Assembly: GCA_964016885.1 (NCBI GenBank)
Contig: OZ024741.1
Coordinates: forward strand, 47,926,001 to 47,990,000
Direction of reading: 5' to 3'
Length of the DNA stretch: 64,000 bases
From: Eledone cirrhosa
Taxonomy: Eukaryota
Positions 18,454-61,045 of the stretch are shown here, in pieces; the first letter of the stretch is position 1; the number at the start of each line of letters is the position of its first letter. Under the pieces are notes generated by a model. It saw nothing but the letters and a program-made list of their open reading frames with translations. It was not told where the DNA came from and did not search any database. Both the position numbers and the translations under genes were made by a program.

Positions 18454-18454
18454 C

Positions 18455-18485
<31 letters not shown>

Positions 18486-18524
18486 AATACATATATATAT
18501 ATACATATATATATATATAAATAC

Positions 18525-18736
<212 letters not shown>

Positions 18737-18988
18737 TGTTATACTTTGGGAGGGTCATGTTGCCAATAAGAAACACACGCACTAGTTGCTTTCACTTCAA
18801 TTTATTATAATAAATGTATAATAAATATATAAATTTATAAATTTCTGGTTGGTTGGTTGGTTCCACAACCAGATAGTTGTTTATATATTGTCATAGTTCT
18901 TTCGTCACACACTCTGTCACCTCTTCAGTGACTGGGGATTCCTTTCTTTGTTTCTGTGCCTCTCCTTTGTTCTGTCCTACGCCATACA
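18737..18988 (-). mobile_element. Probable solo LTR
   Basis: ~250 bp island in the TA array with TGT...ACA termini and AATAAA on the minus strand. No internal coding sequence. Confidence 0.5.
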
Positions 18989-19009
18989 TATATATATACA
19001 TATATATAT

Positions 19010-19171
19010 ATCATCATCATCATCATCAGGTTTAGCGTCCGTGTTCCACGCTTGCATGGGTTTGGACGGGGGTTTTCCCACTTGAGGCAAGAGTGGTTGT
19101 CTTGCTCGCATAGGACTGTCTGGCGGGTTTTCTACAGTTGGATGCCCTTCCTAACACCAACCACATTTACA

Positions 19172-22200: not shown

Positions 22201-23200
22201 CTTTCAACTGCACAGAGGGTTCTATAGAAATACTGGACAGCTTCCGTTACCTGGGTGACAAAATCAGCAGTGGGGGAGGATGCTCTGAAAGTACAGTAGC
22301 TAGAGTCAGAACTGGGTGGAAAAAGTTCAGAGAGCTTATACCTCTACTAGCCGCTAAAGGGTTCTCCCTAAAAATGAAAGGCAGGCTGTATGATGCCTGC
22401 ATACGAACAGCAATGTTGCATGGCAGTGAGACCTGGGCATTGTGTGCAGAGGATATACGCAAACTAGAGAGAAACAAAGCTTGCATGCTCCGCTGGATGT
22501 GTAATAGTAATATACGTGAACGGCAAAGCATAAACGAACTAAGGAAAAAATTAGAAATAAGAGGGATCAGATGTTGTTTACTCGAGAGAAGGCTACGTTG
22601 GTATGGTCACGTGATGCGCATGAAGGACGATAGCTGTATAACAAATTGCAGGGCAATAAAGATAGACGGTAGCCACGGAATAGGCAGACCCAGAAAAACC
22701 TGGGACGAGCTGATAAATTCCGACCTCACACACTTACACCTCTCCAAGACAATGTCACTGGACCAAGATCTCTGGCGGTACTCAGTAATAGAGAAGACCC
22801 GCCTTACCTAAATACAAAGTAAAACCTACTACAGTCAGTAGGCACCTCTAACAAAATACACCCCCGTCCCACTACCCCCACCCCCACCCCATCCACACCA
22901 CCTCTTTCAATGTAAAGTTATGTTGGTGCCACAACATCCAGGCCGAAACAAATGAGATCGTGTAGGTGTCACGTCAAAAAAACTCACAGTTCACGCTGTA
23001 ATGTGGCTGTGTAGGCAACACGGTAAAAATCTCCCAGCCCCACACTGTAAATGTGGTTGGTGTTAGGAAGGGCATCCAGCTGTAGAAAACCCGCCAGATA
23101 GTCCTATGCGAGCAAGATAATCACTCTTGCCTCAAGTGGGAAACCCCCGTCCAAACCCATGCAAGCGTGGAACACGGACGTTAAACGTTGATGATGATGA

Positions 23201-23203
<3 letters not shown>
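19290..23203 (+). mobile_element. Full-length RTE LINE, subfamily A copy 2 (one premature stop)
   Basis: Near-identical to copy 1 at an offset of 9401 bp. Shares the TAA stop (20478-20480). Downstream 705-aa RT/PHD frame is open. Confidence 0.95.
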
Positions 23204-23293
<90 letters not shown>

Positions 23294-23370
23294 TACATAT
23301 ATATATACATACATATATATATATATACACATATATACATATACATATATATATATATACACATATATAC

Positions 23371-23451
<81 letters not shown>

Positions 23452-23474
23452 CATATATATACATATATATATAC

Positions 23475-23509
<35 letters not shown>

Positions 23510-23514
23510 CACAC

Positions 23515-23562
<48 letters not shown>

Positions 23563-23579
23563 ATATATATATACATATA

Positions 23580-24222
23580 TTGTTTAGGTGTATGATATTG
23601 TCAATACTCTGATATGCCCAGTTCCTTGTTGGGTTGTTAATTCAAAGGTACTGAACAATAGCAGGCATAAACACTACAGGGAGCCTCACCCCAGAAAGAA
23701 TTCTATAGACTTCTGACTGAGGAATGCTCTCAGAACTGAACAATGGGAAGTTTGACACATTTTTTGATATTTTGTTCCTTCAACACCTTGTCCCTTCTAC
23801 CATTTTATCAATTTTTAAGCTAACTCCAACAATGACAACACTAATAACTGACCAATGAGAGGAGAAGGGGACCTGTGACACTAAAATTCGTTTGTTTGAA
23901 TTCATATGACTCCAGTTCCCCAGTGAATTAACAACCCAACAAGGAACTGGGCATATCAGAGTATTGACAATATCATACACCTAAACAACATATGTACTTG
24001 TCTATACCATACTAATTCAAACTGCCTGAAGAGGTCACAGCCAAAGATGGCTGTCACTGAAATATATATAGCAGTAATAAACGAAGCTAAATTTTAATCA
24101 TTTGACTTTTATTTAACTTTATTTTACACTACTCCGGAGTAACCAAACCAACCTGCGCACTTCGTCGAGTGCTCCAGCCTGCATACTGAGGTGTTGGTAT
24201 ACAACCAACATAAACTCAAAAT
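23580..24222 (+). mobile_element. Duplicate of Penelope-like remnant 14157-14800
   Basis: Near-identical sequence. Confidence 0.72.
24021..24075 (+). ncRNA. Hammerhead ribozyme (family H3)
   Basis: Same motif as 14598-14652. Confidence 0.82.
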
Positions 24223-24516
24223 CTATATATACATATATATATATATACACACATATATATATATATATACATATATATACATATATACATATATATACAT
24301 ATATACATATATACATATATACATATATATATATACATATATACATATATACATATATACATATATATATATATACATATATATATACATATATACATAT
24401 ATACATATATACATATATATACATATATACATATATATACATATATACATATATACATATATATACATATATACACATATATATACACATATATATATAC
24501 ATATATACATATATAC

Positions 24517-24578
<62 letters not shown>

Positions 24579-24579
24579 T

Positions 24580-24629
<50 letters not shown>

Positions 24630-24661
24630 CATATATATATACATATATATATATATATACA

Positions 24662-25721
24662 TACACCTCTTTAAAATATACCCATCTACCTTACTTTAAA
24701 GGGCATTATAAACTCTATAATACTTGTTTACTCATTACCCTCATTCTATCTTCACCTTGTAAAATCATAACATTTACATTTGTTGTTTTGACGTTAGAAT
24801 ATTCATCCGCAATCATTATTATTTTTTCTCTCTATCATAAATCTTTTTAATCTCAATTTCATCCTTAATTTATTATTTTTTTCTCCCCATCAACGAACTC
24901 ATTATTAATACATATTAACTCTTTATTCGCATATATTATCAATTCCTTCAATATACAAACTTTAACTTCACATTATTTTTCTCAAATCCTTCTACACACA
25001 AACCTTAATAATTTTTCTCTTCGTTAATTTTGAAATTGCCACAATACATACATTTTTTTTTTTGACGTTAGAATATTCATCCACAATTATTATTTTTTTC
25101 TCTCTATCTTCATACATAAATTCCCTTCGTTAATTTTCAAATTCCTTTAATTTATACATTATCTTCCAACGGTTCCCAACCTCTCTATGTTAAAACAATA
25201 TATCTTTTTCTCAGTTATAAAAACTATCTCTTTCTCTCTATCACCCATCTCTCCCACTCCACCTTCACTCTCATCTCCTCCCCCTTTTTTTCATCCCCCC
25301 CTCCCTAAATAAAATATTTTTTCCTCGCACATATCCTCCCTTCGTTAATTTTCAAAATTTTTAATTTATACATTATCTTCCAACGGTTTTCAACCTCTCT
25401 ATGTAAAACAATATATCTCCTCTCAGTTATAAAAACTATCTCTTTCTCTCTATCACCCATCTCTCCCTCTCATCTCCTTCCCTTTTCATCCCCCCCCTCT
25501 CTCTAAAATAAAATATTTTTCCCAATATCACACATCAATCTAAAACCACTTTTCATATGTTGATTTAAAACTGCACTATCCACAAGTGTTTTTTAGCTTT
25601 CATATCATGTTCTCCTGTTTTATCTGATGAAAACACAAATATTATTGCATGATGATGTTTGTTTTTGAAATGCGCATAATAAAATACATGGAACTCCTTT
25701 AACCATCTTTTGATCTTATAT

Positions 25722-25725
<4 letters not shown>
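24662..25725 (+). mobile_element. Duplicate of remnant 15275-16335
   Basis: Near-identical sequence. Confidence 0.6.
25618..25684 (+). ncRNA. Hammerhead ribozyme (family H1)
   Basis: Same motif as 163-229. Confidence 0.78.
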
Positions 25726-25770
<45 letters not shown>

Positions 25771-25792
25771 ATATATATATAAACATATATAC

Positions 25793-25839
<47 letters not shown>

Positions 25840-25899
25840 CATATATGTATGTATATATATATATATGTATATATTATATTATGTATATATATATATATG

Positions 25900-25968
<69 letters not shown>

Positions 25969-26037
25969 CATATGTATATATATAATATGTATATATATAT
26001 TATATACATATATATATATATATATATATACATATAA

Positions 26038-26079
<42 letters not shown>

Positions 26080-26080
26080 C

Positions 26081-26146
<66 letters not shown>

Positions 26147-26147
26147 T

Positions 26148-26338
26148 AACGAAGGAAATGTGGTAAGGAACCAGGTGGACCATAATGCACCAAAGTACTC
26201 AATACTTGAGGTAGTAGAGTGGGTAATAGGAACCAGTAAGACCCCGACAGCTGAGCTCAAGCCGTTTCGACGGCTAATTCAGTCCAGAATTAGCCGTCGA
26301 AACGGCTTGAGCTCAGCTGTCGGGGTCTTACTGGTTCC

Positions 26339-26341
<3 letters not shown>
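26148..26341 (-). mobile_element. Duplicate of fold-back mini-element 17109-17302
   Basis: Same palindrome and tail. Confidence 0.7.
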
Positions 26342-26406
<65 letters not shown>

Positions 26407-26446
26407 CATTATATATATATATATACATACATACATATATATATAT

Positions 26447-26499
<53 letters not shown>

Positions 26500-26500
26500 T

Positions 26501-26605
<105 letters not shown>

Positions 26606-26728
26606 TACATATATACATATATGTACATATATACATATATATATATATACATATATACATATATGTACATATATACATATATATATATATACATATATAT
26701 ATATATGTACATATATATATATATATAT

Positions 26729-26783
<55 letters not shown>

Positions 26784-26859
26784 ATATATATATACATATA
26801 TATATACATATATACATATATATATATATACATATATACATATATATATACATATATAC

Positions 26860-26892
<33 letters not shown>

Positions 26893-27047
26893 CATATATA
26901 CATATATATATATACATATATACATATATATATATATACATATATACATATATATATATTATATACATATATATATGTATATATATACATATATATATAT
27001 ACATATATATATAATATACATATATATATACATCTATATATATATAC

Positions 27048-27102
<55 letters not shown>

Positions 27103-27127
27103 CATATATATATACATATATATATAC

Positions 27128-27174
<47 letters not shown>

Positions 27175-27229
27175 AATACATATATATATATACATATATA
27201 TTTATATATATATATATACATATATATAC

Positions 27230-27276
<47 letters not shown>

Positions 27277-27278
27277 CC

Positions 27279-27331
<53 letters not shown>

Positions 27332-27349
27332 CATATATAATATATATAC

Positions 27350-27416
<67 letters not shown>

Positions 27417-27417
27417 C

Positions 27418-27465
<48 letters not shown>

Positions 27466-27717
27466 TGTTATACTTTGGGAGGGTCATGTTGCCAATAAGA
27501 AACACACGCACTAGTTGCTTTCACTTCAATTTATTATAATAAATTTATAATAAATATATAAATTTATAAATTTCTGGTTGTTTGGTGGTTCCACAACCAG
27601 ATAGTTGTTTATATATTGTCATAGTTCTTTTGTCACACACTCTTGTGACCTCTTCAGTGACTGGGGATTCCTTTCTTTGTTTCTGTACCTCTCCTTTGTT
27701 CTGTCCTACGCCATACA
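27466..27717 (-). mobile_element. Duplicate probable solo LTR
   Basis: Copy of 18737-18988. Confidence 0.5.
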
Positions 27718-27739
27718 TATATATATACATATATATATA

Positions 27740-27903
27740 TCATCATCATCTCATCAGGTTTAGCGTCCGTGTTCCACGCTTGCATGGGTTTGGACGGGGG
27801 TTTTCCCACTTGAGGCAAGAGTGGTTGTCTTGCTCGCATAGGACTGTCTGGCGGGTTTTCTACAGTTGGATGCCCTTCCTAACACCAACCACATTTACAG
27901 TGT
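27740..27903 (-). mobile_element. RTE 3' tip (duplicate of 19010-19175)
   Basis: Sequence match. Confidence 0.85.
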
Positions 27904-27994: not shown

Positions 27995-30773
27995 ATTTTT
28001 TGTTATTTATTTATGTTAAATACGGTTGTATTTTTTGTTATTTATTTATGTTAAATACGGTTGTTTTTGTCATATTGAACAGAACAAAATCTTGCATTTT
28101 TGCTTTTTGTTAATCGCTTAAACATTCATAACCTTCCAGCTATCCACGCGACACCCCTCCCACCCGCCCCCACACACACCATCCCATCCGCCCCCACACA
28201 CCACCATCCCTTAATACGTGGGACCAATCATAAGCCAGAGCCCCCCCCCCCCGCGCATCACCATTATTATTATTACGCGGACCAATCATAAGCCAGAGGC
28301 CCTATACTATCGCTTGCCCGGTTGCCTTCGATATATGATGATGGATGGATGGACTACGGAACCCTGGAGAGTGGAAAAGAGAGAAAAATCTGGACGCTCA
28401 GCGACAATGCCAAAGATAAAGACAAATTCACCTCGTGGACGAGAATGCGAGCACTCCTCTTTGTTTCGTCCGCGGATGAAAAATATGGAAGCTAAAGACC
28501 CCACAGCCAGAAATAATTTTCAAAGCATATTACTTGATGCTTTCGACAGTAAGGAAGAACATTTAGAGTCGGACAATATAGAGGGACAGTGGAATTTCTG
28601 AAAGCAAACCTGCTGTTGGCGACAGACGAAGTCTGTGGCTGGAGCAGGCCTGTAGGCAGGAGGAGAGTAACGTGGTGGTGGAACAGTAAGGTGGAGGAGT
28701 CAATTAAGGCCAAAAGCAGGCTTGGAAAGTATGGCGGGATGGGGGAAGTAGAGAAGACTATCAAGTGGCCAGGCGGGAAGCTAGGAGACAAGTGTACTTA
28801 GCAAGAAGGGAAGCAGAGGAAAGAAAGTTCAAGCATGTTCTACAACGCGATGACCAAAAACGTGAGGTGTTCAGGATTGCTAGGCAATGCCGTCAAGGAA
28901 AACGTGATATTGTCGGGGAGAAGTGTGTACTTAACGATGATGGCATACTTGCCATCACCGACGCTGATAGAAGGTAGCTTGGGAGTGTCACTATGAAAGG
29001 CTACTAAATGAGGAGAATAAATGGGAGAAAGGACAGTCTCCCCCATATCGACCCAATAGAGGGACCAGCAGTGTTAGTCGAGGGGAGTATAACAAGTAAG
29101 GCAATCAAGGATATGAAGACGGTAAGGCGGCTGGGCCTTCGGAAATAGTTGCTGAGATGCTGAAGGCATCTGGCACGGTGGGACACACCATGGTCACCCG
29201 CATAGTTAACCAAGTCGTACAGAATGGGGTTGTTCCGAAGGACTGGCATAGCAGCATCATCGTTAACTGTTTTATAAGGGTAAAGGAGACGCCCTAGATA
29301 GAGTAACTATAGAGGCATTAAATTATCGACCAGGTCATGAAGGTCACGGAAAAAGTAATAGCGCAACTAATCAGAGAGAGAATTGACCTAGATGAATGCA
29401 GTTCGGGTTTGTGTCAGGCAAAAGTACCACAGACGCTCTTTTCATAGTACGACAACTACAGGAGAAGTACCTAGCTAAAGGTAAACCCCTCTACTTAGCT
29501 TTTGTCGACTTGGAGAAAGCCTTCGACAGAGTCCCCCGCTCCATTATCTGGTGGGCTCTTAGAAAACTAGGCGTTGACGAATGGCTTGTGAGGGCTATAC
29601 AAGCCATGTATAAAGAAACAGTCAGCAAGGTTAGAATTAACAACGAATATAGTGAAGAGTTTTAGCGTAAAAGTTGGTGTCCATCAGGGCTCTGTTCTCA
29701 GCCCCCTACTATTTATTATTGCCCTTCTGGCTATAACAGAGGAGTTCAAGACCGGCTGCCCATGGAACTCCTATACGCAGACGACCTGACACTCATAGCG
29801 GAATCAATGGCCGAGCTAGAGAAGAAATTCCAAACATGGAAGCACGGCCTACAGTTAAAAGGACTTAAAATTACCTGGCTAAGACTAAAGTTCTAGTTTG
29901 TAGGAAAGAAAACAAGCGGCGTCCCTTCTGGGAAATGGTCGTGCTCGGTGTGTAGGAAAGGCGTAGGTAGAAACTCCATTTTATGTCCTAAATGCAAAGT
30001 ATGGGTGCATAAAAGATGTAGTGGGATCACAGGTAATCTAACTAAGAACATAGATTTTACATGTGGCCGGTGCTCTGGTGCAATAAGTAGCAGCAAGTGC
30101 CCACAAAATACTAGCTCTTTCAATTGCGCAGAGGGTTCTATAGAAATAGTGGACAGCTTCCGTTACCTGGGCGATAAAATCAGCAGTGGGGGAGGGTGCT
30201 CTGAAAGTACAGTAGCTAGAGTCAGAACTGGTTGGAAAAAGTTCAGAGAGCTTATACCACTAGTAGCTGCTAAAGGTTCTCCCTAAAAATGAAAGGCAGT
30301 TTGTACGATGCTGCATACGAACAGCAATGTTGCATGGCAGTGAGACCTGGGCATTGTGTGCAGAGGATATACGCAGACTAGAGAGAAACGAAGCTTGCAT
30401 GCTCCGCTGGATGTGTAACAGTAATATACGTGAACGGCAAAGCATAAACGAACTAGGAAAAAATTAGAAATAAGAGGGATCAGATGTTGTTTACTCGAGA
30501 GAAGGCTACGTTGGTATGGACACGTGATGCGCATGAAAGTCGATAGCTGTATAACAAAGTGCAGGGCAATAAAGATAGACGGTAGCCACGGAATAGGCAG
30601 ACCTAGAAAAACCTGGGACGAGCTGATAAACTCCGACCTCACACACTTACACCTCACCAAGACAATGTCACTGGACCGAGACCTTTGGCGGTACTCAGTA
30701 ACAGAGAAGACCCGCCTTACCTAAATACATAGTAGAAACCTACTACAGCCAGTAGGCATCTCTAACAAAATAC
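27995..30773 (+). mobile_element. RTE LINE copy 3: endonuclease deleted, many frameshifts, 3' UTR truncated
   Basis: Junction ccgcggatg|aaaaatatgg at ~28478 removes the APE domain. RT and PHD motifs are split across frames. Confidence 0.92.
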
Positions 30774-33722: not shown

Positions 33723-35780
<2,058 letters not shown>

Positions 35781-38816: not shown

Positions 38817-39706
38817 CAGAGTGAGGACGATATTTATTCGCAATTTTCAACTGCTAATTGTTTGCAAATTTTTTTTACTTCCGTTGTCACTCTTGTCTTC
38901 ATAAAAACAGTGACTATATTTCCATTATTTATTTTCAGAATAATTGATTATGAATAATTTTGAACCTCCAAATTTGTGGAAGAGACACGGAGTTCTTCTT
39001 CAAATCCGCGGCGGGAGGATAAATAAGGACCAGAAGATCAACTCCCAGAACAATAGGTGGCTCGCTGTCTCATCCAAAGACGTGCCCAGAGTCATGCAGA
39101 CAAAGTTTCCAGCGACAACATTGGTCTTACGTGTCGTCAGCACTCAAGGTGACGTCATGCCACCTCACTTCTTTCCTGAGGGCCTCAAGCTGAACACCGA
39201 TGGCTACATCCGCGTTCTGAGCGAGGTAGTAAAACCCTGGATCGACCAGGTAGCTGCTGGTAGGCCGTACATGTGGCAGCAAGACTCAGCGCCCTGCCAT
39301 ACCCGCCGAAAGACCCAAGCCTGGCTGTCAGAGAACTTCGTCGACCACACTTGACTTGACATCTGGCCTCCCAGATCGCCTGACTGCAACCTCAACTCCT
39401 TTGTGTGAGGTGCAGTGGAATGAGACACCAACAGATCTAGCTGCAATACGAAAGATGATCTGAAGGCCAGGATCACAAGTGCCTTTAGGGGCCTAAGTCG
39501 GGGGACAGTGACGAAGGCTTGTAGCCGGTTCCGAGGCCGCCTTGAGGCCGTCATCAAAGCCAATGGCGGGTTTATCAAGTGAGATCGAAAGAACAAGTCA
39601 TGAAGCCAAACTGACTCAAGTTTGATAAATATATCTTAAAAAATAAAACTACTGTGTTACTTTTTCCTAGACAGTAATCTTGCCAACAAATATCATCCAC
39701 ACCCTG
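38817..39706 (+). mobile_element. Tc1/mariner DD37D (maT-like) DNA transposon, internally deleted
   Basis: TA target site. Imperfect ~27-bp TIRs CAGAGTGAGGACGATATT / AATATCATCCACACCCTG. Transposase remnant WQQDSAPCH...WPPRSPDCN with stops; spacing restores to D37D. Confidence 0.88.
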
Positions 39707-45607: not shown

Positions 45608-46247
45608 TCACAAATACATTTAGGTATCCACCATGTTAAGAGCAAAAACAAATTTTGTAAGTAAACGGCCACATAAACACCATGTTTTAGATGAGCAACA
45701 TCATCCTTTTCTACCAGCGGTAGCTGAGAGAAAATAATCAACAATTGTTTTGTAATTTTTGCTCCTTATTGAGACTGTGTATTATGTTCACTGCTACCCA
45801 CTGGAACTGCTGAGAATACATAGTATTCTTAAATGTATACATCAGCTGATTAGTCTCATTTGCATACCGAGTGATTTTTATGGCCAGCTTTGCCGAAAAT
45901 TAAAAAGGCTGATGTTGGTCATCTAGCACATGGTGTTTATGAGGCTGTTTACTTGTAAAGAAACTGAATATTAATAATATTCTTGGTTGTCCATCGTAAA
46001 CGATGATGACATCTTCATTGTTGTTCCCATCTGCCGTGGGTGCGAAGGTGGCAAAAGCAAATTTTGTTTTTTAATTTTTGGCAAAGTCTTGCTTTTCTTA
46101 ACCAGATTAATTTTGTAGCTAATGGTTTGTTTTTATTTGTTTTTCTCCTCACTATGGGCTCACTACATTCTGTGTGCCAACACCTCTTAACTATTTCAAA
46201 AGAACTTTTTATTATTTGTATTGATTATAGATTTTATTTCTTTCCAG

Positions 46248-46389
46248 AATCCCTTCTAGAATTGCAGGCAGCTAACAACAGAATTTATTCCTTACCAAAC
46301 TCTAAACATTGGAGCTGTCTTTACCTAAAAATCCTAAACCTTGGAAATAATTTTTTGGGACAAACTGCTGAAAGACCAATAGAAAAAAG
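46248..46389 (+). CDS. Exon of host LRR-ROC (ROCO/LRRK-like) gene, LRR region
   Basis: Acceptor ttttatttctttccag and donor ag|gtatt. Translates SLLELQAANNRIYSLPNSKHWSCLYLKILNLGNNFLGQTAERPIEK (LxxLxLxxNxL). Ends in phase 2, compatible with the next exon. Confidence 0.85.
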
Positions 46390-46655
46390 GTATTATTTTT
46401 CAACATAGAGTTGCAGACATTTATGTTCTGAGTTTAGCTTTGCCTTTTATCCTTATGGGGTCGATAAAATAAAGCGCTAGTAACGCACTGGAGTAATTGC
46501 TGGCCTTGTGCCAAAAGTAGAAAGAACTATTATGAAACATTAGGGTGGTGGATTGGCAGAATTACTAGAGTCTTAGACAAAATGTTTTGCAGTATGCAGG
46601 ATTTGTTCTGTCTCTTTAAATTCTGAGTTCAAATCCTGCCAAAGTCAATTTTGCC

Positions 46656-47252
46656 AGATCGTCAGCATAGAAAAGTTCCCATGGGCAGCCAGTCTTGGAG
46701 AACTATAATGAACAAGAGTTGGCTGAGGACCAAACCCTGATGAACTCCTACTTGTATCTGGAATTCCTTACTAAACTCCATTCCTACTCTCACTTTACTG
46801 ACAGCTCCTCTGTACATAGCTTGCACTGTCCTTAGAAGCCATTCCTCTACACCTAGTTTCCTTAGGGATCACCAGATGACATCGGAGTACTGTATCAAAG
46901 GTCTTCCCTAGGTCAACAAAACCTCTCTTGTAATTGTCTCACTAAGAAGAGGACATCTATTGTACCTTTCCCAGACACAAAACCAAACTGCAGCTCATCT
47001 AATTTGACTCTTTCTCTAATTAGTTGTGCTAGCACTCTTTCTGCTACTTTCATAACCATCAGTTTTATGCCCCTATAATTGCTCCGCTCCAGAGCATCCC
47101 CATTACCTTTGTAGGAATTTACAAGAATACTGCTACACCAGTCTTTGGGTATGATTCCGCCATATATAACTTGATTGACTATGCATGCAACCAGTTTAGT
47201 TCCTACTTCTCCTGATGCCTTCAGCATCTCAGCAACTATTCCTGACAGTCCA
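46656..47252 (-). mobile_element. Diverged RTE RT fragment
   Basis: SGIVAEMLKASG, NYRGIKL, QFGFVSGKGT, HQG, ELFYADDL. Confidence 0.85.
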
Positions 47253-47559
47253 TTTTGGAGGTTTTTCGCTATGAATTTTAATGTGACAATTGTCACAAAG
47301 TTAAAATTCATAGTAAATAGCTTTCAAAATGTTTTTTATAAACATCCTGTATATTATTAAGTATACATTACTCCCTTATTAAGTATATATTGCTCCCACT
47401 CTCTCTAACATATACGTCCCTCTCGCTCTCTCACTCCCTAATATAAATAAGAATATTACGAAGGGCAAAACCTCAGAATTTGTCAACTCTTATTAAATGG
47501 TCAGTCGATTCTACGAAAATGTAATGTATTATAGAACATTTTCTTCTTGTCTCCTTAAA

Positions 47560-50500
47560 ACCTGGTTCATTCATCCATATATATCTACAATCGTTGCTAT
47601 CCTTGCCCTAAATTAATCTTCTCCACGCTTGTTCTAAATAATCTCTCTCTTTGTAATCTTCTCCACGCTTGTTCTAAATAATCTCTCTCTTTGCTAACTA
47701 CCCTGTATCCCTCCCTTCCGCCCCCACTCTCCACCTTTACTATTTGGACCAATCACAAGTCAACGGCCTATGCTATCACTACTGGCTGCTTTTCGATATG
47801 ATGGATGGACTAAGGAATCTCTGGAGAGTCTGAAGAATCTGGACACTCGATGACAATGCCAAAGATAACGACAAATTCACCTCATGCTGCCGGACGAAAG
47901 GGCAAGGCCCCCCCCCTCTTTGTTTCGACCGCGGATGGCCAACATAACCCCAAACTCATTCCCCTCACCCCATCCTCCAAACACAATCCAAAACTTCAGA
48001 GTTGGTACCATGAACGTAGGCACCTTAAAAGGCCGCTCTAACGAGGTTGTAGAATTGCTTGAACGTAAGGAGGTTGATGTTTGCTGTATCCAAGAGACCA
48101 GGTGGAGGGGCGGGTCTGCTAGATTCATTGTGGGTAAAAAACGTTGCTATAAGCTTTTCTGGGTGGGGAATGACAATGGGATAGGTGGGGTAGGAATCAT
48201 GTTAGCAGAAAAATGGGTGGATAAGATAATAGATGTAAATAGAGTGAATGACAGAATAATTAAAATAAGACTTGTTCTAAACAGAACTACTGTGACAGTA
48301 ATATCTGCATACGCGCCCCAATCCGGACTGCCTGGAGCTATAAAAGACAGATTCTATGAGACACTGATGCTCACTACCTCCCAAATAACCGACAGTGACT
48401 ATATAATTATTGCTGACGACCTAAATGGTCACGTTGGACAACATTGTGACGGCTATGACGGAATCCACGGAGGCTATGGGTTTGGTACTAGAAACAAGGA
48501 AGGCTCCAGAATCCTGGAATTCTGTGATGCAAACAACCTAACTATCTGTAACACCAACTTCAAAAAACGAGACAATCACTTGATCACCTACAGATCAGGA
48601 GAACATACCAGCCAGGTAGATTATATCCTTACCAGAAGACGTGACAGAGTGTCTGTTGTAAACACTAAATCCCTTCCCCATGAAGAATGCACCTCCCAAC
48701 ATAGACTGATAATTAGCGACCTCATAGTCAGGACGAGACGTACTAGACAGCAGAAGAGGACTATCCTCAGGAGAAAAATATGGAAGCTAAAGGATCCCAC
48801 AGCCAGAAATAAATTTCAAAGCATATTACTTGATGCTTTCGACAGTAAGGAAGAGCAATTAGAGTCGTACAAGGAAGAGGAACAGTGGGAATTCCTGAAA
48901 GCAAACCTGCTGATGGCGGCAGACGAAGTCTGTGGCTTGAGCAGGCCTGTAGGCAGGAGGAGAGTAACATGGTGGTGGAACAGTAAGGTGGAGGGGTCAA
49001 TCAAGGCCAAAAAGCAGGCTTGGAAAGCATGGCGGGATGGGGGAAGTAGAGAAGACTATCAAGTGGCCAGGAGGGAAGCTAGGAGACAAGTGTACTTCGC
49101 AAGAAGGGAAGCAGAGGAAAGAAAGTTCAAGCATGTTCTACAACGCGAGGACCAAAAACGCGAGGGGTTCAGGATTGCTAGGCAATGTGTCAAGGAAAAG
49201 CGTGATATTGTCGGGGAGAAGTGTGTACTTAACGATGATGGTGTACTTGCCATCACTGACGCTGATAAGAAGGTAGCTTGGAAGTGTCACTACGAAAGGC
49301 TACTAAATGAGGAGAATAAATGGGAGAAAGACAGTCTCCCCCACATCGACCCAATAGAGGGACCAGCAGTGTTAGTCGAAGGTAGTATAATAAGTAAGGC
49401 AATCAAAGATATGAAGACGGGTAAGGCGGCTGGGCCTTCGGAAATAGTTGCCGAGATGCTGAAAGCCTCTGGTACGGTGGGACACACCATGGTCACCCGG
49501 ATAGTAAACCAAGTCATACAGAATGGGGTTGTTCCGAAGGACTGGCGTAGCAGCATCATCGTTAACTGTTACAAGGGTAAAGGAGACACCCTAGATAGGA
49601 GTAACTATAGAGGCATTAAATTAATCGACCAGGTCATGAAGGTCACGGAAAAAGTAATAGCGCAACTAATCAGAGAGAGAATTGATCTAGATGAAATGCA
49701 GTTCGGGTTTGTGTCAGGCAAAAGTACCACAGACGCTCTTTTCATTGTACGACAACTACAGGAGAAGTACCTAGCTAAAAGTAAACCCCTATACTTAGCT
49801 TTTGTCGACTTGAAGAAAGCCTTCGACAGAGTCCCCCGTTCCATTATCTGGTGGGCTCTTAGAAAACTAGGTGTTGTCGAATGGCTTGTGAGAGCTATAC
49901 AAGCCATGTATAAAGAAACAGTCAGCAAGGTTAGAATTAACAACGAATATAGTGAAGAGTTTAGCGTAAAAGTTGGTGTCCATCAGGGCTCTGTTCTCAG
50001 CCCCCTACTATTTATTATTGCCCTTCAGGCTATAACAGAGGAGTTCAAGACCGGCTGCCCATGGGAACTCCTATACGCAGATGATCTAACGCACATAGCT
50101 GAATCAATGGCTGAAACATGGAAGCACGGCCTAGAATCAAAAGGCCTTAAAATTAACCTGGCTAAGACCAAAGTTCTAGTTTGTAGGAAAGAAAATAAGG
50201 CGCCGGTCCCTTCCGGGAAATGGCCATGCTCAGTGTGTAGGAAAGGCGTAGGTAGAAATTCCATTTTATGTCCCAAATGCAAAGTATGGGTGCATAAAAG
50301 ATGTAGTGGGATCACAGGTAAGCTAACTAAGAACACAGATTTTACATGTGGCCGGTGCTCTGGTGCAATAAGTAGCAGCAAGTGCCCACAAAATACTAGC
50401 TCTTTCAATTGCGCAGAGGGTTCTATAGAAATAGTGGACAGCTTCCGTTACCTGGGTGACAAAATCAGCAGTGGGGGAGGGTGCTCTGAAAGTACAGTAG

Positions 50501-51408
50501 CTAGAGTCAGAACTGGATGGAAAAAGTTCAGAGAGCTTATACCACTATTAGCTGCTAAAGGGTTCTCCCTAAAAATGAAAGGCAGGTTGTATGATGCCTG
50601 CATACGAACAGCAATGTTGCATGGCAGTGAGACCTGGGCATTGTGTGCAGAGGATATACACAGACTAGAGAGGAACGAAGCTTGCATGCTCCGCTGGATG
50701 TGTAATAGTAATATACGTGAACGGCAAAGCATAAACGAACTAAGGAAAAAATTAGAAATAAGAGGGATCAGATGTTGTTTACTCGAGAGAAGGCTACGTT
50801 GGTATGGTCACATGATGCGTATGAAAGACGACAGCTGTATAACAAAGTGCAGGGCAATAAAGATAGATGGTAGCCACGGAGTAGGCAGACCCAGAAAAAC
50901 CTGGGACGAGCTGATAAATTCCGACCTCACACACTTACACCTCTCCAAGACAATGTCACTGGACCGAGACCTTTGCCGGTACTCAGTAACAGAGAAGACC
51001 CGCCTTACCTAAATACAAAGTAAAACCTACTACAGTCAGTAGGCATCTCTATCAAAACACACCCCCGTCCCACCACCTCCACCCCATCCACACCGCCCCT
51101 TTCAATGTAAAGTTATGTTGGTCCCACAACATCCAGGCCGAAACAAATGAGATCGTGTAGGTGTCACGACAAAAAACACACAGTCCACGCTGTAATGTGG
51201 CCGTGTAGGCAACACGGTAAAAACCTCCCAGCCCCACACTGTAAATGTGGTTGGTGTTAGGAAGGGCATCCAGCTGTAGAAAACCCGCCAGACAGTCCTA
51301 TACGAGCAAGACAACCACTCTTGCCTCAAGTGGGAAAACCCCCGTCCAAACCCATGCAAGCGTGGAACATGGACGTTAAACGATGATGATGATGATGATG
51401 ATGATGAC
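47560..51408 (+). mobile_element. Full-length RTE LINE, subfamily B
   Basis: 5' UTR distinct from subfamily A, single open ORF, 3' UTR and (GAT)n tail. Confidence 0.95.
47884..51012 (+). CDS. RTE polyprotein APE-RT(PHD), 1042 aa, uninterrupted
   Basis: All EN and RT motifs in one frame. Has GDLN->DDLN and a 6-aa deletion (LEKKFQ) after YADD relative to other copies. Confidence 0.92.
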   Translation: MLPDERARPPPSLFRPRMANITPNSFPSPHPPNTIQNFRVGTMNVGTLKGRSNEVVELLERKEVDVCCIQETRWRGGSARFIVGKKRCYKLFWVGNDNGIGGVGIMLAEKWVDKIIDVNRVNDRIIKIRLVLNRTTVTVISAYAPQSGLPGAIKDRFYETLMLTTSQITDSDYIIIADDLNGHVGQHCDGYDGIHGGYGFGTRNKEGSRILEFCDANNLTICNTNFKKRDNHLITYRSGEHTSQVDYILTRRRDRVSVVNTKSLPHEECTSQHRLIISDLIVRTRRTRQQKRTILRRKIWKLKDPTARNKFQSILLDAFDSKEEQLESYKEEEQWEFLKANLLMAADEVCGLSRPVGRRRVTWWWNSKVEGSIKAKKQAWKAWRDGGSREDYQVARREARRQVYFARREAEERKFKHVLQREDQKREGFRIARQCVKEKRDIVGEKCVLNDDGVLAITDADKKVAWKCHYERLLNEENKWEKDSLPHIDPIEGPAVLVEGSIISKAIKDMKTGKAAGPSEIVAEMLKASGTVGHTMVTRIVNQVIQNGVVPKDWRSSIIVNCYKGKGDTLDRSNYRGIKLIDQVMKVTEKVIAQLIRERIDLDEMQFGFVSGKSTTDALFIVRQLQEKYLAKSKPLYLAFVDLKKAFDRVPRSIIWWALRKLGVVEWLVRAIQAMYKETVSKVRINNEYSEEFSVKVGVHQGSVLSPLLFIIALQAITEEFKTGCPWELLYADDLTHIAESMAETWKHGLESKGLKINLAKTKVLVCRKENKAPVPSGKWPCSVCRKGVGRNSILCPKCKVWVHKRCSGITGKLTKNTDFTCGRCSGAISSSKCPQNTSSFNCAEGSIEIVDSFRYLGDKISSGGGCSESTVARVRTGWKKFRELIPLLAAKGFSLKMKGRLYDACIRTAMLHGSETWALCAEDIHRLERNEACMLRWMCNSNIRERQSINELRKKLEIRGIRCCLLERRLRWYGHMMRMKDDSCITKCRAIKIDGSHGVGRPRKTWDELINSDLTHLHLSKTMSLDRDLCRYSVTEKTRLT

Positions 51409-51897
51409 ATTACATACATTCATATATATATAATAACTAACAAATAGTTTTATCGCTCTACATGGCTGAATACAAGAAATATAAATCTGAGTTTTTCAAA
51501 TATTAATAATAATATTTGATTCATTTGCAATTATGCAAGCAGCCTCTTAAGCAATGTGAGTAGAATGACCCCATCATTCTTGGTCTTATGTTGGCATATA
51601 AACAGAACTGCAGACACTAATGTTTCTCGGTTATTACCCTTCATCAGTATTGTATACTGTTTACCTGCCAACTGTCAGAGCTTGTGAAAAGATATATTTT
51701 CTGGAATATACAGTGACTGATCGTCCTGATTTGCAGACCCACTGATCACCCAGATAGGCTAGTTAGTTTTATGTATGCGAGCGATTAATGGCCGGCTTTG
51801 CCATAGTCAAATAACTAACAAATATAGTGCTCAATATAGGTTAAGGTGATATATATATATAATCATAAACTTTCATTGAAACTTTTATCTTGTTTAG

Positions 51898-52074
51898 CAA
51901 TCTATCAGTGTTCAAAAGGAGAATGTTAAGACCTTCAGCCATGCCTGAAGAAATTGAATTTCCTATGTTCCTGTCAGATTGTCTGATAGAACTTGATCTA
52001 GAGAACAACCACCTAGATGCTATTCCACCAAGTGTTTGTTACCTGACAGCGTTGAAGATATTGAACCTCAGTGG
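51898..52074 (+). CDS. Exon of host LRR-ROC gene (177 nt, phase 2-2)
   Basis: Acceptor ttttatcttgtttag and donor gg|gtaagt. Translates NLSVFKRRMLRPSAMPEEIEFPMFLSDCLIELDLENNHLDAIPPSVCYLTALKILNLSG, with typical LRRs. Confidence 0.9.
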
Positions 52075-52980
52075 GTAAGTAGCCAAATGCAATTTTTCTT
52101 GGTTTCTTTTTTTTTCTTCTTTTACTTGTTTCAGTCAGACTGTGGCCATGCTGGAGCACCACCTTTATTTAGTTGATCATATTGTCTCCAGTACTTGCAG
52201 TCCCCTAAACTTCTTCCACCATGTTCTTATTCTAGCTACTATACCATCTAACCCATGCTAGCATGTAAAATGGATGTAAAATGATGATGATGATGTTGAT
52301 ATGCTCTCTGAACACCTCCTCTGCTGCTAATTATATCACCTAAGTAGCAGAAACTAACAACCACAGGGACAGACACTGAGATACTGGATATATCCAATGA
52401 AGTAAGGTTTGAGTTTGTCACTCACATAGTCAACCAGGTAGTACAGCGAGCTGTCATACCCAGTGACTGGGGTAACAATATCATCAACTGTGACAAGGGC
52501 AAATGTGATGCTCTAGAAGGGATTAACTATAGCGATATCAAAATGATAGATGTAAATTGATAATTAACAATCGCACATATGCACATATTATTTTTAGCAA
52601 GGGTGGTGTATTGGCAGAATCGATAGAGCATCGGACAACATGGTTTTTGACATATGATTACGTCACTTTATGTTCTGAGTTCAAATCTTGTTGAGTTTAG
52701 CTTTGCCTTTAATCCTTACGGGGACAATAAAAGCACCTGTAATGCACTGGGGTCAATTTCATTGACTTTCCCTTCTTCCAAAATGATTGGCCTTGTGCTT
52801 AAATCATTATTTTTAGCATAAATGACTGCATCTCATTAAAAAAGATTCTCTTTCCTGTTATGTTGCAAATTTTAACAGCTTTCCAGTATAAAGGAAGATA
52901 TGAGGTTTGAGTCCTTCTTCTTCACCCACTTATTCCTGAGAAGGTTGTGGGGGAGCTGAGTCCTCAAAAACTCCCTCCAG

Positions 52981-55960
52981 AGCACCAGAGCACCGGCCAC
53001 ATGTAAAATCTACGTTCTTAGTTAGCTTACCTCTGATCCCACTACATCTTTTATGCACCCATACTTTGCATTTGGGACATAAAATGGAGTTTCTACCTAC
53101 GCCTTTACTACACACTGAGCATGGCCATTTCCCAGAAGGGACTGGCGCTTTATTTTCTTTCCTACAAACTAGAACTTTAGTCTTAGCCAGGTTAATTTTA
53201 AGGCCTTTGGATTCTAGGCCGTGCTTCCATGTTTGGAATTTCTTCTCTAGCTCGGCCATTGATTCAGCTATGAGCGTTAGATCATCTGCGTATAGGAGTT
53301 CCCATGGGCAGCCGGTCTTGAACTCCACTGTTATAGCCTGGAGGGCAATAATAAATAGTAGGGGGCTAAGAACAGAGCCCTGATGAACACCAACTTTTAC
53401 GCTAAACTCTTCACTATATTCGTTGTTAATTCTAACCTTGCTGACTGTTTCTTTATACATGGCTTGTATAGCTCTCACAAGTCATTCATCAACACCTAGT
53501 TTTCTAAGAGCCCACCAGATAATGGAACGGGGGACTCTGTCGAAGGCTTTCTCCAAGTCGACAAAAGCTAAGTATAGGGGTTTACTTTTAGCTAGGTACT
53601 TCTCCTGTAGTTGTCGTACAATGAAAAGAGCGTCTGTGGTACTTTTGCCTGACACAAACCCGAACTGCATTTCATCTAGATCAATTCTCTCTCTGATTAG
53701 TTGCGCTATTACTTTTTCCGTGACCTTCATGACCTGGTCGATTAATTTAATGCCTCTATAGTTAATCCTATCTAGGGCATCTCCTTTACCCTTGTAGCAG
53801 TTAATGATGATGCTGCTACGTCAGTCCTTCGGAACAACCCCATTCTGTATGACTTGGTTTACTATCCGGGTGACCATGGTGTGTCCCACCGTACCAGAGG
53901 CTTTCAGCATCTCAGCAACTATTTCCGAAGGCCCAGCCGCCTTACCCGTCTTCATATCTTTGATTGCCTTACTTATTATACTACCTTCGACTAACACTGC
54001 TGGTCCCTCTATTGGGTCGATGTGGGGGAGACTGTCTTTCTCCCATTTATTCTCCTCATTTAGTAGCCTTTCGTAGTGACACTTCCAAGCTACCTTCTTA
54101 TCAGCGTCAGTGATGGCAAGTACGCCATCATCATTAAGTACACACTTCTCCCCAACAATATCACGGTTTTCCTTGACACATTGCCTAGCAATCCTGAACA
54201 CCTCACGTTTTTGGTCCTCGCGTTGTAGAACATGCTTGAACTTTCTTTCCTCTGCTTCCCTTCTTGCGAAGTACACTTGTCTCCTAGCTTCCCTCCTGGC
54301 CACTTGATAGTCTTCTCTACTTCCCCCATCCCGCCATGCTTTCCAAGCTTGCTTTTTGGCCTTAATTGACTCCTCCACCTTACTGTTCCACCACCATGTT
54401 ACTCTCCTCCTGCCTACAGGCCTGCTCCACCCACAGACTTCATCTGCCGCCATCAGCAGGTTTGCTTTCAGGAATTCCCACTGTTCCTCTTCCTTGTACG
54501 ACTCTAATTGCTCTTCCTTACTGTCGAAAGCATCAAGTAATATGCTTTTAAATTTATTTCTGGCTGTGGGGATCCATATTTTTCTCCTGAGGATAGTCCT
54601 TTTCTGCTGTCGAGTACGTCTCGTCCTGACTATGAGGTCGCTAATTATCAGTCTATGTTGGGAGGTGCATTCTTCATGGGTGAGGGATTTAGTGTTTACA
54701 ACAGACACTCTGTCACGTCTTCTGGTAAGGATATAATCTACCTGGCTGGTATGTTCCCCTGATCTGTAGGTGACCAAGTGATTGTCTCATTTTTTGAAGT
54801 TAGTGTTACAGATAGTTAGGTTATTTGCATCACAGAATTCCAGGATTCTGGAGCCTTCCTCATTTCTAGTACCAAACCCATAGCCTCCGTGGATTCCATC
54901 ATAGCCGTCACAGTGTTGACCAACGTGGCCATTTAGGTCGTCAGCAATAATTATATAGTCACTGTCGGTTATTTGGGAGGTAGTGAGCATCAGTGTCTCA
55001 TAGAATCTGTCTTTTATAGCTCCAGGCAGTCTGGATTGGGGCGTGTATGCCGATATTACTGTCACAGTAGTTCTATTTAGAACAAGTCTTATTTTAATTA
55101 TTCTGTCATTTACTCTATTTACATCTATTATCTTATCCACCCATTTTTCTGCTAACATTATTCCTACCCCACCTATCCCATTGTCATTTCCCACCCAGAA
55201 AATCTTATAGCAACGTTTTTTACCCACAATGAATCTAGCAGACCCGCCCCTCCACCTGGTCTCTTGGATACAGCAAACATCAACCTCCTTACGTTCAAGC
55301 ATTTCTACAACCTCGTTAAAGCGGCCTTTTAAGGTGCCTACATTTATGGTACCAACTCTGAAGTTTTGGATTGTGTTTGGAGGATGGGGCGCAGGGATGG
55401 ATGTTGGCCATCCACGGCCGAAACAAAGAGGAGGGGGCCTTGCCCTTTCGTCCAGCAGCATGAGGTGTATTTGTCGTTATCTTTGGCATTGTCATCAAGT
55501 GTCCAGATTCTTCAGACTCTCCAGAAATTCCTTAGTCCATCCATCATATCGAAAAGCAGCCAGAAGTGATAGCATAGGCCGTTGACTTGTGATTGGTCCA
55601 AATAATAAGGTGGAGAGTGGGAGCGAGGGGTATGGGGGGGTAGTTAGCAAAGAGAACATTATTTAGAACAAATGGGGTAGTTAGCGGGAGGTTTTAAATT
55701 AAATCTTCGAATTTTTTTTTGGGGGGTGGGTGGAGGGGTGGCATAATTGGAGAAGCATATAACAGTAATAATAAGCGAATAATGGGGTTTTAAAATACAA
55801 GAAGATTATTTAGAAACAACCAGACAGAATTATAGAATAGCATTGAGAGAGAGCAACGATTGGATTTTGGGCGATATACGGATATATGAATGAATGGACC
55901 GATAGCAAAGAGAAGATTATTTAGAACAATATGAATGAATGAACCGATAGGCTGGAGAGA
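52981..55960 (-). mobile_element. RTE LINE subfamily B, 3'-truncated at the end of the PHD finger, with premature stops
   Basis: Minus-strand ORF pieces for APE and RT. Ends at CGRCSGA. Confidence 0.93.
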
Positions 55961-58229: not shown

Positions 58230-58339
58230 GAATACAAATATCACCAAGCTACCTCTTGAACTAGCCAACTTACAAGCATGTCGATCACTAAATTTGGATA
58301 AACTTGAAATTACTAATCTGCCAAAAGATTTTCCAAGAG
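58230..58339 (+). CDS. Exon of host LRR-ROC gene
   Basis: Acceptor ttattatttgaaccag and donor ag|gtaaga. GG+G completes Gly, then NTNITKLPLELANLQACRSLNLDKLEITNLPKDFPR. Not in the ORF track. Confidence 0.85.
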
Positions 58340-60080: not shown

Positions 60081-60175
60081 AGACAAATAACCGAAATATT
60101 ATTGATAATTTTCATGAAAAGGTTCGCCAGAGTGTACCATATAGACACATGAAGATAGCAGTTATGGGTAGTGAG
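60081..60175 (+). CDS. Exon of host gene, LRR-to-ROC GTPase junction
   Basis: Acceptor ttttgtttacag and donor gag|gtatt. G+AG gives Glu, then TNNRNIIDNFHEKVRQSVPYRHMKIAVMGSE. This resembles LRRK2 '[24 protein letters not shown]' just before the P-loop. Confidence 0.82.
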
Positions 60176-60305: not shown

Positions 60306-61045
60306 GGAGGTGCTTTAGTGGTTAGAGATTTGGATGGCTCCATGCCCTGCCATCCTTCTCCACTGGCACGGAGCTAGACAACCATAGCCTGCGAATCGGC
60401 GTTTCATTGAGGCTCGGCCTCCGGATCTGCCAGCCACACCAATGTCGCTGCGGTTCCACCGTGGACTCTTTCGGCCTCCACCCGCTTTCCTGTCGCCACA
60501 GTGCCGGCCGCATTCCACGCCATGCTGCCCTCAACAAGGTCATTAAGCATGGCTTGGACGCTGCAGGCTTCCCTTCCCAGCTTGAACTGGTGGGGCTGGA
60601 TCGAGGAGACGGCAAAAGGCCAGATGGCATGACCATCTTCCCGTTCCGCGGTGGCAAACCCCTCGTCTGGGATGCCTCTTGCACCGACACTTTCTGCAGC
60701 CGCAACCTGGTGCAGTCTGCGACTGACCCAGGTTCTGCTGCACGTCGGGCTGAGGGGGCCAAACTCCTCAAATACCGGTCGCTCTCCGACAGATTTGCGG
60801 TCGTACCCCTGGTAGTGGAGACTTCTGGTGTCCTCGGCCCCAGGGCTACCTCCTTACTCACCACCATAGGCGCTGAGCTGGCCAGCTGCAGATGTGATCC
60901 CTGCGAGTTGGAGTGGCTTTTCCAGCGTGTCTCCCTTGCTGTTCTCCGGGGAAACGCCTTCTCCATTCTGTCTGTCGGGGCTGTGGGTGGGCCCCTTCGC
61001 GTCCCAATACATTAGTTAAATACCATTCTTTCATCTGACACTGTA
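60306..61045 (+). mobile_element. 3' fragment of restriction-like-endonuclease non-LTR retrotransposon (CRE-like)
   Basis: GC-rich island encoding CRCG..D..GLH.LSC (CCHC), RH..LN, KRPDG...VWD, K..KY, ET.G, FQRVSLAVLRGNA. Ends at a short (TA)n. Confidence 0.82.

What the first reader, a model, noticed from the sequence alone, without database searches (positions are those of the whole stretch)
47560..55960. Two long inverted RTE copies bracket a frame-symmetric host exon
Seen: a + strand full RTE (47560-51408) and a - strand copy of the same subfamily (55960-52981) face tail-to-tail around the 177-nt phase 2-2 exon 51898-52074. They share ~2.7 kb of high similarity. In the pre-mRNA they could form a multi-kb duplex looping out the exon. 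Known: flanking inverted repeats promote back-splicing and exon skipping and are ADAR substrates, and coleoids edit RNA extensively. Skipping would preserve the frame (AG+G) and remove roughly two LRRs.
Basis: partly seen in the sequence, partly recalled or inferred. Interest (0 to 1): 0.72.

Follow-up and report, generated by a model that had tools for sequence, protein, structure and literature searches.

The report
Inverted retrotransposon pair around LRRK1 exon
Two recent copies of a very common jumping gene sit in opposite orientations on either side of one exon of an octopod LRRK1 kinase gene, so the unspliced RNA would likely fold into a 2.7-kb double helix that is likely edited, but the one RNA assembly examined keeps the exon, so this is likely an ordinary by-product of repeat crowding and not a splicing switch.

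Summary
Observation confirmed. RTE-A (+) and RTE-B (-) share 2,716 columns at 95.1% identity and bracket a 177-nt phase 2-2 exon with a 2,615-nt loop. The host is an octopod LRRK1 orthologue; skipping would be in frame and drop two LRR motifs. Corrections: B is 3'-truncated with three stops, and A has an in-frame deletion in its RT. The copies differ mostly at synonymous sites (dN/dS 0.20-0.28), so they are likely separate retrotranspositions, with no sign of selection for pairing. One run, X4, behaves as RNA: a single 4,926-nt contig splices E1-E2-E3-E4, exon included. No skip or back-splice joint was listed, but contigs drop minor forms, and X4's tissue and genotype are unknown. Editing could not be tested. 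Best reading: a chance inverted pair in a window that is 31% RTE, likely an ADAR substrate, with the exon mostly kept. A minor TBXT-like skip isoform is not excluded. The scan noted this kind of arrangement before in two other genomes, not at this place.

The parts
46248..46389 (+). LRRK1-like exon E1 (142 nt, phase 1-2), LRR
   Evidence: tblastn with P0016 and P0151, 68-69% identity; X4 contig positions 486-625
46656..47240 (-). Old RTE fragment, 64% identical to A; weak same-intron competitor for pairing
47563..51408 (+). RTE-A: near full-length RTE LINE, sense to host. ORF 47869-51012 (endonuclease, RT, PHD-like finger), 18-nt in-frame deletion near 50114, (GAT)n tail. 5' end approximate
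47669..50366 (+). Left arm of the inverted pair (part of RTE-A)
51898..52074 (+). LRRK1-like exon E2 (177 nt, phase 2-2): a loop, one LRR and the beta-strand motif of the next; included in the X4 contig
52982..55671 (-). Right arm of the inverted pair (RTE-B body): 3'-truncated, three TGA stops, 9-nt deletion
55672..55960 (-). Repetitive 5' leader of RTE-B; only short motifs shared with A's 5' end; boundary approximate
58230..58339 (+). LRRK1-like exon E3 (110 nt, phase 2-1), last LRR
60081..60175 (+). LRRK1-like exon E4 (95 nt, phase 1-0), LRR-ROC linker and start of ROC

Best explanation
Two young copies of one abundant RTE LINE subfamily lie in opposite orientation in the introns on either side of a conserved LRRK1 exon; they likely inserted independently and by chance, are predicted to pair into a 2.7-kb duplex in the unspliced RNA that is likely edited and unwound by ADAR and helicases, and the exon is kept in the one mRNA assembly examined. 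Shown: the geometry, the host gene, the pattern of substitutions, and exon inclusion in one run. Inferred: independent insertion, duplex formation in the cell, editing, and that any skipped or circular product is minor and unselected. The exon likely survives because the helix ends are far from it (1,531 and 907 nt) and its donor site is close to consensus.
For: Run X4 gives one 4,926-nt contig (depth 15.8, 0 mismatches in the exon pieces) joining E1-E2 (table 8), and E2-E3 and E3-E4 at GT..AG. A and B differ at 41 synonymous and 30 non-synonymous positions over 799 codons; dN/dS 0.20, or 0.28 with transition weighting, p about 1e-7 against neutrality. That fits descent through separate active source elements. 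No excess of pair-preserving changes: 25 G-U against 38 A-C, p = 0.13. RTE fills 31% of the window; E1 is bracketed by 22 inverted pairs and E2 by 11. A rough chance figure at local density is 0.6-1.3% per such exon. E2's donor matches 7 of 9 consensus positions (consensus recalled). All 12 near-full cephalopod-type LRRK1 proteins checked keep the segment. Young repeats are the main A-to-I targets across animals (PMC9989829, passages); octopus editing is mostly intronic or 3' UTR and circRNAs are low (PMC9699675, passages; 296 in total in its supplement).
Against: This is the closest and best long inverted pair in the window. It is far longer and more complementary than the TBXT Alu pair (228/297 identical, 1,448 bp apart), which does cause skipping from more than 500 bp away (PMC10901737, passages and section 6). 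The inclusion evidence is one run of one study, assembled contigs only, of unknown tissue, from a sample not shown to carry both insertions. The other species probably lack these insertions, so their proteins do not test the duplex. The chance figure is rough and rests on two to four copies. Editing is expected from the literature, not seen here.
Confidence: 0.65

Rival explanations
1. TBXT-like splice switch: the duplex loops out E2 often enough (10% or more in some tissue) to make an in-frame LRRK1 that is 59 residues and two LRRs shorter next to the ROC domain, with editing level tuning the ratio.
For: Geometry, frame and duplex strength fit. Any inverted pair, not only Alu, can cause such skipping (PMC10901737, passages). 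LRR position is proposed to control access to the human LRRK1 kinase (PMC10412621, passages).
Against: The X4 contig includes E2 and is unbroken at E1 and E3. From recalled knowledge of graph assemblers, a common skip form would usually break it. No skipped form among 12 cephalopod-type proteins. No sign of selection for pairing.
Confidence: 0.15
2. circRNA source: the duplex drives back-splicing of E2 into a 177-nt circle whose coding frame has no stop and three ATGs, so it could be translated round and round.
For: Flanking complementary repeats drive back-splicing in flies and humans (PMC4617980, PMC11263572; passages). The circle's coding frame is open.
Against: Only exons of 300 nt or more circularised efficiently in PMC4617980. 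Octopus circRNAs are few and low (PMC9699675). An open circle follows automatically for any symmetric coding exon.
Confidence: 0.07
3. The pair is not fixed or not on one molecule: one insertion is polymorphic or heterozygous, or the assembly joins haplotypes, so most transcripts (perhaps those in X4) never hold both arms.
For: Both copies are young: 9 and 14 private non-synonymous codon changes in 799 codons. An RTE family is insertion-polymorphic in O. bimaculoides (PMC9115989, passages). The window holds a 9.4-kb duplicate at 99-100% identity that may be an assembly fault.
Against: Each copy has 41 private substitutions and B has decayed further (stops, truncation), so neither is brand new. 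A's and B's flanks are unrelated, so the pair is not an assembly fold-back.
Confidence: 0.08
4. Hairpin-RNA trap: read-through from either LINE's own promoter makes a long self-complementary RNA that is cut into small RNAs against the RTE family.
For: Both copies keep 5' regions and point at each other; B lacks its 3' end, so its transcript would run on across E2 into A. Inference only.
Against: No positive evidence of any kind. Promoter activity of either copy is untested.
Confidence: 0.05

Closest known systems
TBXT AluSx1-AluY pair flanking exon 6 in apes (PMC10901737; passages and section 6 read)
   Same: Two independently inserted retroelements in opposite orientation in the two introns around one frame-symmetric coding exon, each more than about 500 nt from it.
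   Different: Here the arms are LINE bodies of 2.7 kb at 95% (against about 300 nt at 77%) with a 2.6-kb loop (against 1.4 kb). No skipped isoform has been seen and dependence on the repeats is untested; in TBXT both were shown.
Repeat-driven circRNAs: inverted Alu pairs (PMC11263572, passages) and Drosophila laccase2 DNAREP1 pair (PMC4617980, passages)
   Same: Complementary transposon copies in the flanking introns, young and likely lineage-specific.
   Different: The enclosed exon is 177 nt, under the 300 nt that circularised efficiently; the repeats are not close to the splice sites; no back-splice seen.
ADAR editing of dsRNA from young repeats in animals and coleoids (PMC9989829, PMC9068888, PMC9699675; passages)
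   Same: A long, nearly perfect intramolecular duplex of young repeats in intronic RNA of an octopod, with 38 A-C mismatches.
   Different: Editing at this locus is not observed; the duplex spans an exon instead of lying within one intron or UTR.
Octopus RTE-clade LINEs such as RTE-2_OV (PMC9115989, passages)
   Same: Single long ORF with endonuclease, RT and a zinc-finger-like domain; recently active family in octopods.
   Different: Identity to RTE-2_OV was not tested. Both copies here carry lesions. The clade label rests on architecture, the microsatellite tail and recall, not on a tree.
Young antisense L1 repressing nearby exons through MATR3/PTBP1 (PMC6108849, passages)
   Same: RTE-B is a young LINE antisense to the host, 907 nt from the exon.
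   Different: Acts through protein binding, not pairing; shown for mammalian L1 and strongest within 500 nt; untested for RTE.

Membership tests
Exon-flanking inverted transposon pair (structural class) | Complementary repeats in opposite orientation in both flanking introns of a real exon | tested here: met
Exon-flanking inverted transposon pair (structural class) | Arms can form a stable duplex, nearest and best among competitors | tested here: met
   Prediction only: perfect runs of 211, 209 and 143 bp, 14 runs of 50 or more; only long pair with a loop under 5 kb
TBXT-type repeat-induced exon skipping | Enclosed exon is frame-symmetric, so the skip is in frame | tested here: met
   177 nt, phase 2-2, no stop after skipping
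TBXT-type repeat-induced exon skipping | A skipped mRNA exists | tested here: inconclusive
   The X4 contig shows inclusion. No stretch holding both E1 and E3 was laid, only 6 of 44 loose ends were shown, and contigs drop minor forms
TBXT-type repeat-induced exon skipping | Skipping depends on both repeats | not testable with these tools
   Needs deletion, a minigene, or individuals lacking one copy
Repeat-driven circRNA | Back-splice junction 52074->51898 | tested here: inconclusive
   0 of 5 joints listed go back (2 more were dropped at repeats); library type unknown, contigs only
Repeat-driven circRNA | Exon long enough for efficient circularisation (about 300 nt or more; a tendency, not a rule) | tested here: not met
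   177 nt against PMC4617980
ADAR hyper-edited repeat duplex | Locus-specific A-to-G clusters in RNA against DNA of the same animal | not testable with these tools
   Contigs from other family copies swamp the locus (98,939 laid in X1, 6,184 in X4); no raw RNA reads offered
LRRK1 (ROCO kinase) host gene | Collinear homology to an ANK-LRR-ROC-COR-kinase-WD40 protein closer to LRRK1 than LRRK2 | tested here: met
   Four exons map in order to P0016 residues 473-644. P0016 has these domains and scores E 2e-183 to human LRRK1 against 1e-89 to LRRK2. E2's best PDB hit is LRRK1
RTE-clade non-LTR retrotransposon | One ORF with APE endonuclease and RT, short tandem-repeat tail | tested here: met
   (copy A)
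RTE-clade non-LTR retrotransposon | RT phylogeny within the RTE clade | not tested

The most novel reading that the evidence does not exclude
A recent LINE-LINE clamp of kilobase scale, the octopod counterpart of the TBXT Alu pair, makes an in-frame LRRK1 isoform with two fewer LRRs in some tissues, and ADAR editing of the 2.7-kb stem sets how much. If one insertion still segregates, carriers and non-carriers give a natural test of whether heavy coleoid editing shields exons from long LINE duplexes.
Probability: 0.12. Interest if true: 0.68.

Novelty: new member of a known kind. Interest (0 to 1): 0.3.

Why it matters
As it stands this is an unusually long, clean example of a known arrangement. 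Its main use is as a test case: a 2.7-kb, 95% duplex across a conserved exon appears to be tolerated, which bears on whether coleoid ADAR activity protects splicing from repeat-made dsRNA. If skipping is real, it would show full LINE bodies, not only SINEs, creating a new protein isoform in a kinase whose LRR arm is thought to gate substrate access. Searches found no paper on it: 'inverted LINE' + circRNA + flanking gave 0 papers; octopus + LRRK1 gave 3 (2 listed, on other subjects by title and abstract start); one search gave 3 (2 listed). The library lacks most subscription papers.

Tried and rejected
No whole genome is held, so the genome-wide frequency of such pairs could not be counted. 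No RNA holder was listed for 51410-52980; X4, of unrecorded kind, was judged to be RNA only from its spliced joints. Laying X1-X3 on 46150-52400 listed no piece that bridges RTE-A's junctions and no empty-site joint among 15 of 654 joints shown: no information on polymorphism. The change spectrum of X4 resembled that of X1-X3 (A>G 39 against 41-43 places), but it comes from many family copies and is no test of editing; the single A>G row (53386, contig depth 297) is likely another copy. Local inverted DNA duplication: rejected, because dN/dS is well under 1 and each copy lacks sequence the other has. Selection for pairing: no G-U excess. ADAR-type A-to-G clusters fixed in the DNA, a lead from earlier notes: not found, 3 of 41 private changes in A and 2 of 41 in B. 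Local structure round E2 is no stronger than shuffles (z 0.25). Target-site duplications: none convincing. A word-index protein search with E2 alone found nothing, and E4 alone had no Pfam or PDB hit. Upstream and downstream LRRK1 exons were not found in the window.
Full report
1. Observation. A local BLAST of the window gives one long inverted match, 47669-50366 against 55671-52982, with 2582 of 2716 columns identical. Between the arms lie 2,615 nt that include the exon 51898-52074 (177 nt, phase 2-2). The paired part of A ends 1,531 nt before the exon's acceptor, A's true 3' end is 490 nt before it, and B begins 907 nt after its donor. Copy A has a single 1047-aa frame with endonuclease, RT and PHD-like Pfam hits and a (GAT)n tail. 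It lacks 18 nt right after the YADD motif that B and copy C2 carry; loose ends at 50114 in runs X1-X3 show the same extra letters in other family copies. A is therefore likely damaged. Copy B stops at 52982, about 1 kb short of the element's end, and has three TGA stops and a 9-nt deletion. No convincing target-site duplication was found for either.

2. Host gene. The exon's best match among solved structures is human LRRK1. The broad protein search returned P0016 at 70% identity over residues 3-58, named LRRK1-like of Argonauta hians, with ANK, LRR, ROC, COR, kinase and WD40-like domains and much closer to LRRK1 than LRRK2. It maps in order to four exons: 46248-46389, 51898-52074, 58230-58339 and 60081-60175. 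The O. vulgaris protein is 68-84% identical to them and cuttlefish-type proteins 36-51%, so the organism is likely an octopod other than O. vulgaris. No exon for residues 1-472 was found in 1-46247, so that whole stretch is likely one intron. Skipping E2 gives an AGG junction codon, no stop, 59 fewer residues, and two of four LRR strand motifs lost.

3. Duplex. Read as RNA, the alignment has 2582 Watson-Crick pairs, 25 G-U, 38 A-C, 27 other mismatches and 44 gaps. Perfect runs reach 211, 209 and 143 bp. A rough piecewise sum is about -3,800 kcal/mol after subtracting local folds. Of 71 inverted pairs of 100 nt or more in the masked window, this is the only one of at least 500 nt and 85% identity with a loop under 5 kb. 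Competitors exist but are distant: B against three upstream + copies (92-94%, loops 23-40 kb), and A's 3' end against upstream - fragments that bracket E1 (97.6% over 591 nt, loop 18 kb). So pairing in the nascent RNA is likely. This is a prediction, not an observation.

4. Origin. Over 1,574 shared columns A and B are 97.4% identical and 94.4-96.2% to copies C1 and D, with 15 changes private to each and 15 shared: one young sublineage. Over 799 codons they differ at 41 synonymous and 30 non-synonymous positions, dN/dS 0.20 (0.28 with transition weighting, p about 1e-7). Decay after a DNA-level duplication of a dead copy would give about 1, so the two likely came from different active source elements by separate retrotranspositions. 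Transition differences give fewer G-U than A-C pairs (25 against 38, p = 0.13), so nothing suggests selection to keep the helix. Neither copy shows genome-fixed A-to-G clusters. RTE sequence makes up 31% of the window. At the local density of long copies, an exon with introns of these original sizes has about a 0.6-1.3% chance of this arrangement. That figure is rough and partly circular, but it makes a few cases per genome unsurprising.

5. RNA evidence. The run search listed no holder on record as RNA. Run X4 (kind unrecorded, 88 million letters) nonetheless gave a 4,926-nt contig of depth 15.8 whose positions 486-625 match E1 and 626-805 match E2 without mismatch (table 8). The same-length, same-depth contig joins E2 to E3 (skips 6,155, GT..AG) and E3 to E4 (skips 1,741, GT..AG). 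Listed pieces of X1-X3 run unspliced across exon-intron borders, so X4 is likely RNA. The exon-included mRNA therefore exists and is the form that assembled. None of the 5 joints listed goes back; 2 more were dropped at repeats. Limits: one run, one study, contigs that drop rare forms, unknown tissue and library, and no proof that the donor carries both insertions. No stretch holding both E1 and E3 was laid, so a skip could only have shown as a loose end, and only 6 of 44 loose ends were printed; even the contig's own loose part before E2 was not among them. That an unbroken contig implies a minor skip form is recalled knowledge of graph assemblers, not a measurement. Editing could not be judged, because contigs of other family copies swamp the locus.

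6. Other species. I checked 21 of 24 cluster members (three short ENA fragments left out). All 12 near-full cephalopod-type proteins (5 named octopod, 2 named cuttlefish, 5 unnamed and cuttlefish-like) contain the E2 segment, as do 4 starfish and 4 fish proteins in its C-terminal part. One 257-aa fragment matches none of the four exons. The exon is an old part of the LRR arm and no skipped form turned up. These species probably lack the insertions, so this speaks only against a conserved isoform.

7. Mechanism. Most likely (0.65): a chance pair that forms dsRNA, is edited and unwound, and is removed with the introns, while E2, with a near-consensus donor (7 of 9) and distant helix ends, is mostly kept. 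Rivals: TBXT-like skipping at 10% or more somewhere (0.15); pair polymorphic or not in cis (0.08); circRNA of the 177-nt exon (0.07); hairpin small-RNA trap (0.05). A trace of skipping is compatible with the best reading.

8. Comparison with what is known. The closest system is the TBXT Alu pair, where a 228/297 match 1,448 bp apart causes in-frame skipping and non-Alu inverted sequences do the same (PMC10901737; passages and section 6). Against circularisation, only exons of 300 nt or more circularised efficiently between the laccase2 repeats (PMC4617980; passages), and O. vulgaris has few, low circRNAs with most editing in introns and 3' UTRs (PMC9699675; passages and supplement file 2; its data archive was held cut and was not seen). 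Editing of young repeats is general (PMC9989829; PMC9068888; passages). Competition among inverted repeats and ADAR's effect on it are reviewed in PMC11263572 (passages). Octopus RTEs are recently active and polymorphic (PMC9115989; passages). LRR dynamics may gate the LRRK1 kinase (PMC10412621; passages). Young antisense L1s repress nearby exons by protein binding (PMC6108849; passages). The locus belongs to the structural class of exon-flanking inverted transposon pairs. It is not filed as a splice switch or circRNA locus, since those features were not shown.

9. Earlier notes of this scan. None for this place or sequence. Two notes from other genomes describe the same kind of arrangement with no shown effect. 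Two notes from this genome on edited RTE copies fixed in DNA prompted the test, which was negative for these copies. They are unchecked leads, not support.

10. Verdict. Real, accurately described, unusually long, and most likely ordinary. The open question, minor skipping and editing in carriers, is cheap to settle with raw RNA reads. Interest 0.30; new member of a known kind.

Noticed in passing
window 9920-19165 vs 19321-27893: Tandem duplicate of a unit of about 9.4 kb, 99-100% identical in its matched non-microsatellite parts, including a whole RTE copy (99.7%) with the same in-frame stop; 1-325 also matches both units. Recent duplication or assembly fault.
   Followed up: partly
window 1-46247: No LRRK1 exon for residues 1-472 was found, implying an intron of more than 46 kb, packed with RTE copies; the long ones are all sense to the host.
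   Followed up: partly
window 52977-52994: RTE-B's truncated 3' end sits at an 8-nt tandem repeat, as in a microhomology-type deletion. The lost kilobase is the part that would have lain nearest the exon. Copy D is also broken at its 3' end, so this need not reflect selection.
   Followed up: partly
window 60326-61012 (-): GC-rich 229-aa open frame in the intron after E4 with no Pfam hit; from recall it resembles the zinc-knuckle and restriction-like endonuclease end of another non-LTR retrotransposon class.
   Followed up: partly
window about 6377-7900 (-): Open frame with RT-like and GIY-YIG-like motifs, resembling a Penelope-like element (recalled; seen).
   Followed up: no
window about 33730-35680 (+) and 38960-39580 (+): Fragments of a different LINE RT and of a Tc1/mariner-like transposase (labels recalled).
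   Followed up: no
window 28279-30760 (+): RTE copy D joins its 5' leader directly to about position 1214 of the element (internal deletion of about 840 nt) and breaks off at an AT microsatellite.
   Followed up: no
window 51815-51819: The only branch-point-like YTRAY motif within 100 nt of E2's acceptor lies 83 nt upstream, farther than usual (pattern recalled).
   Followed up: no
window 50227-50360: PHD-finger-like cysteine cluster in the RTE ORF just after the RT domain (Pfam PHD, E 3e-06).
   Followed up: no
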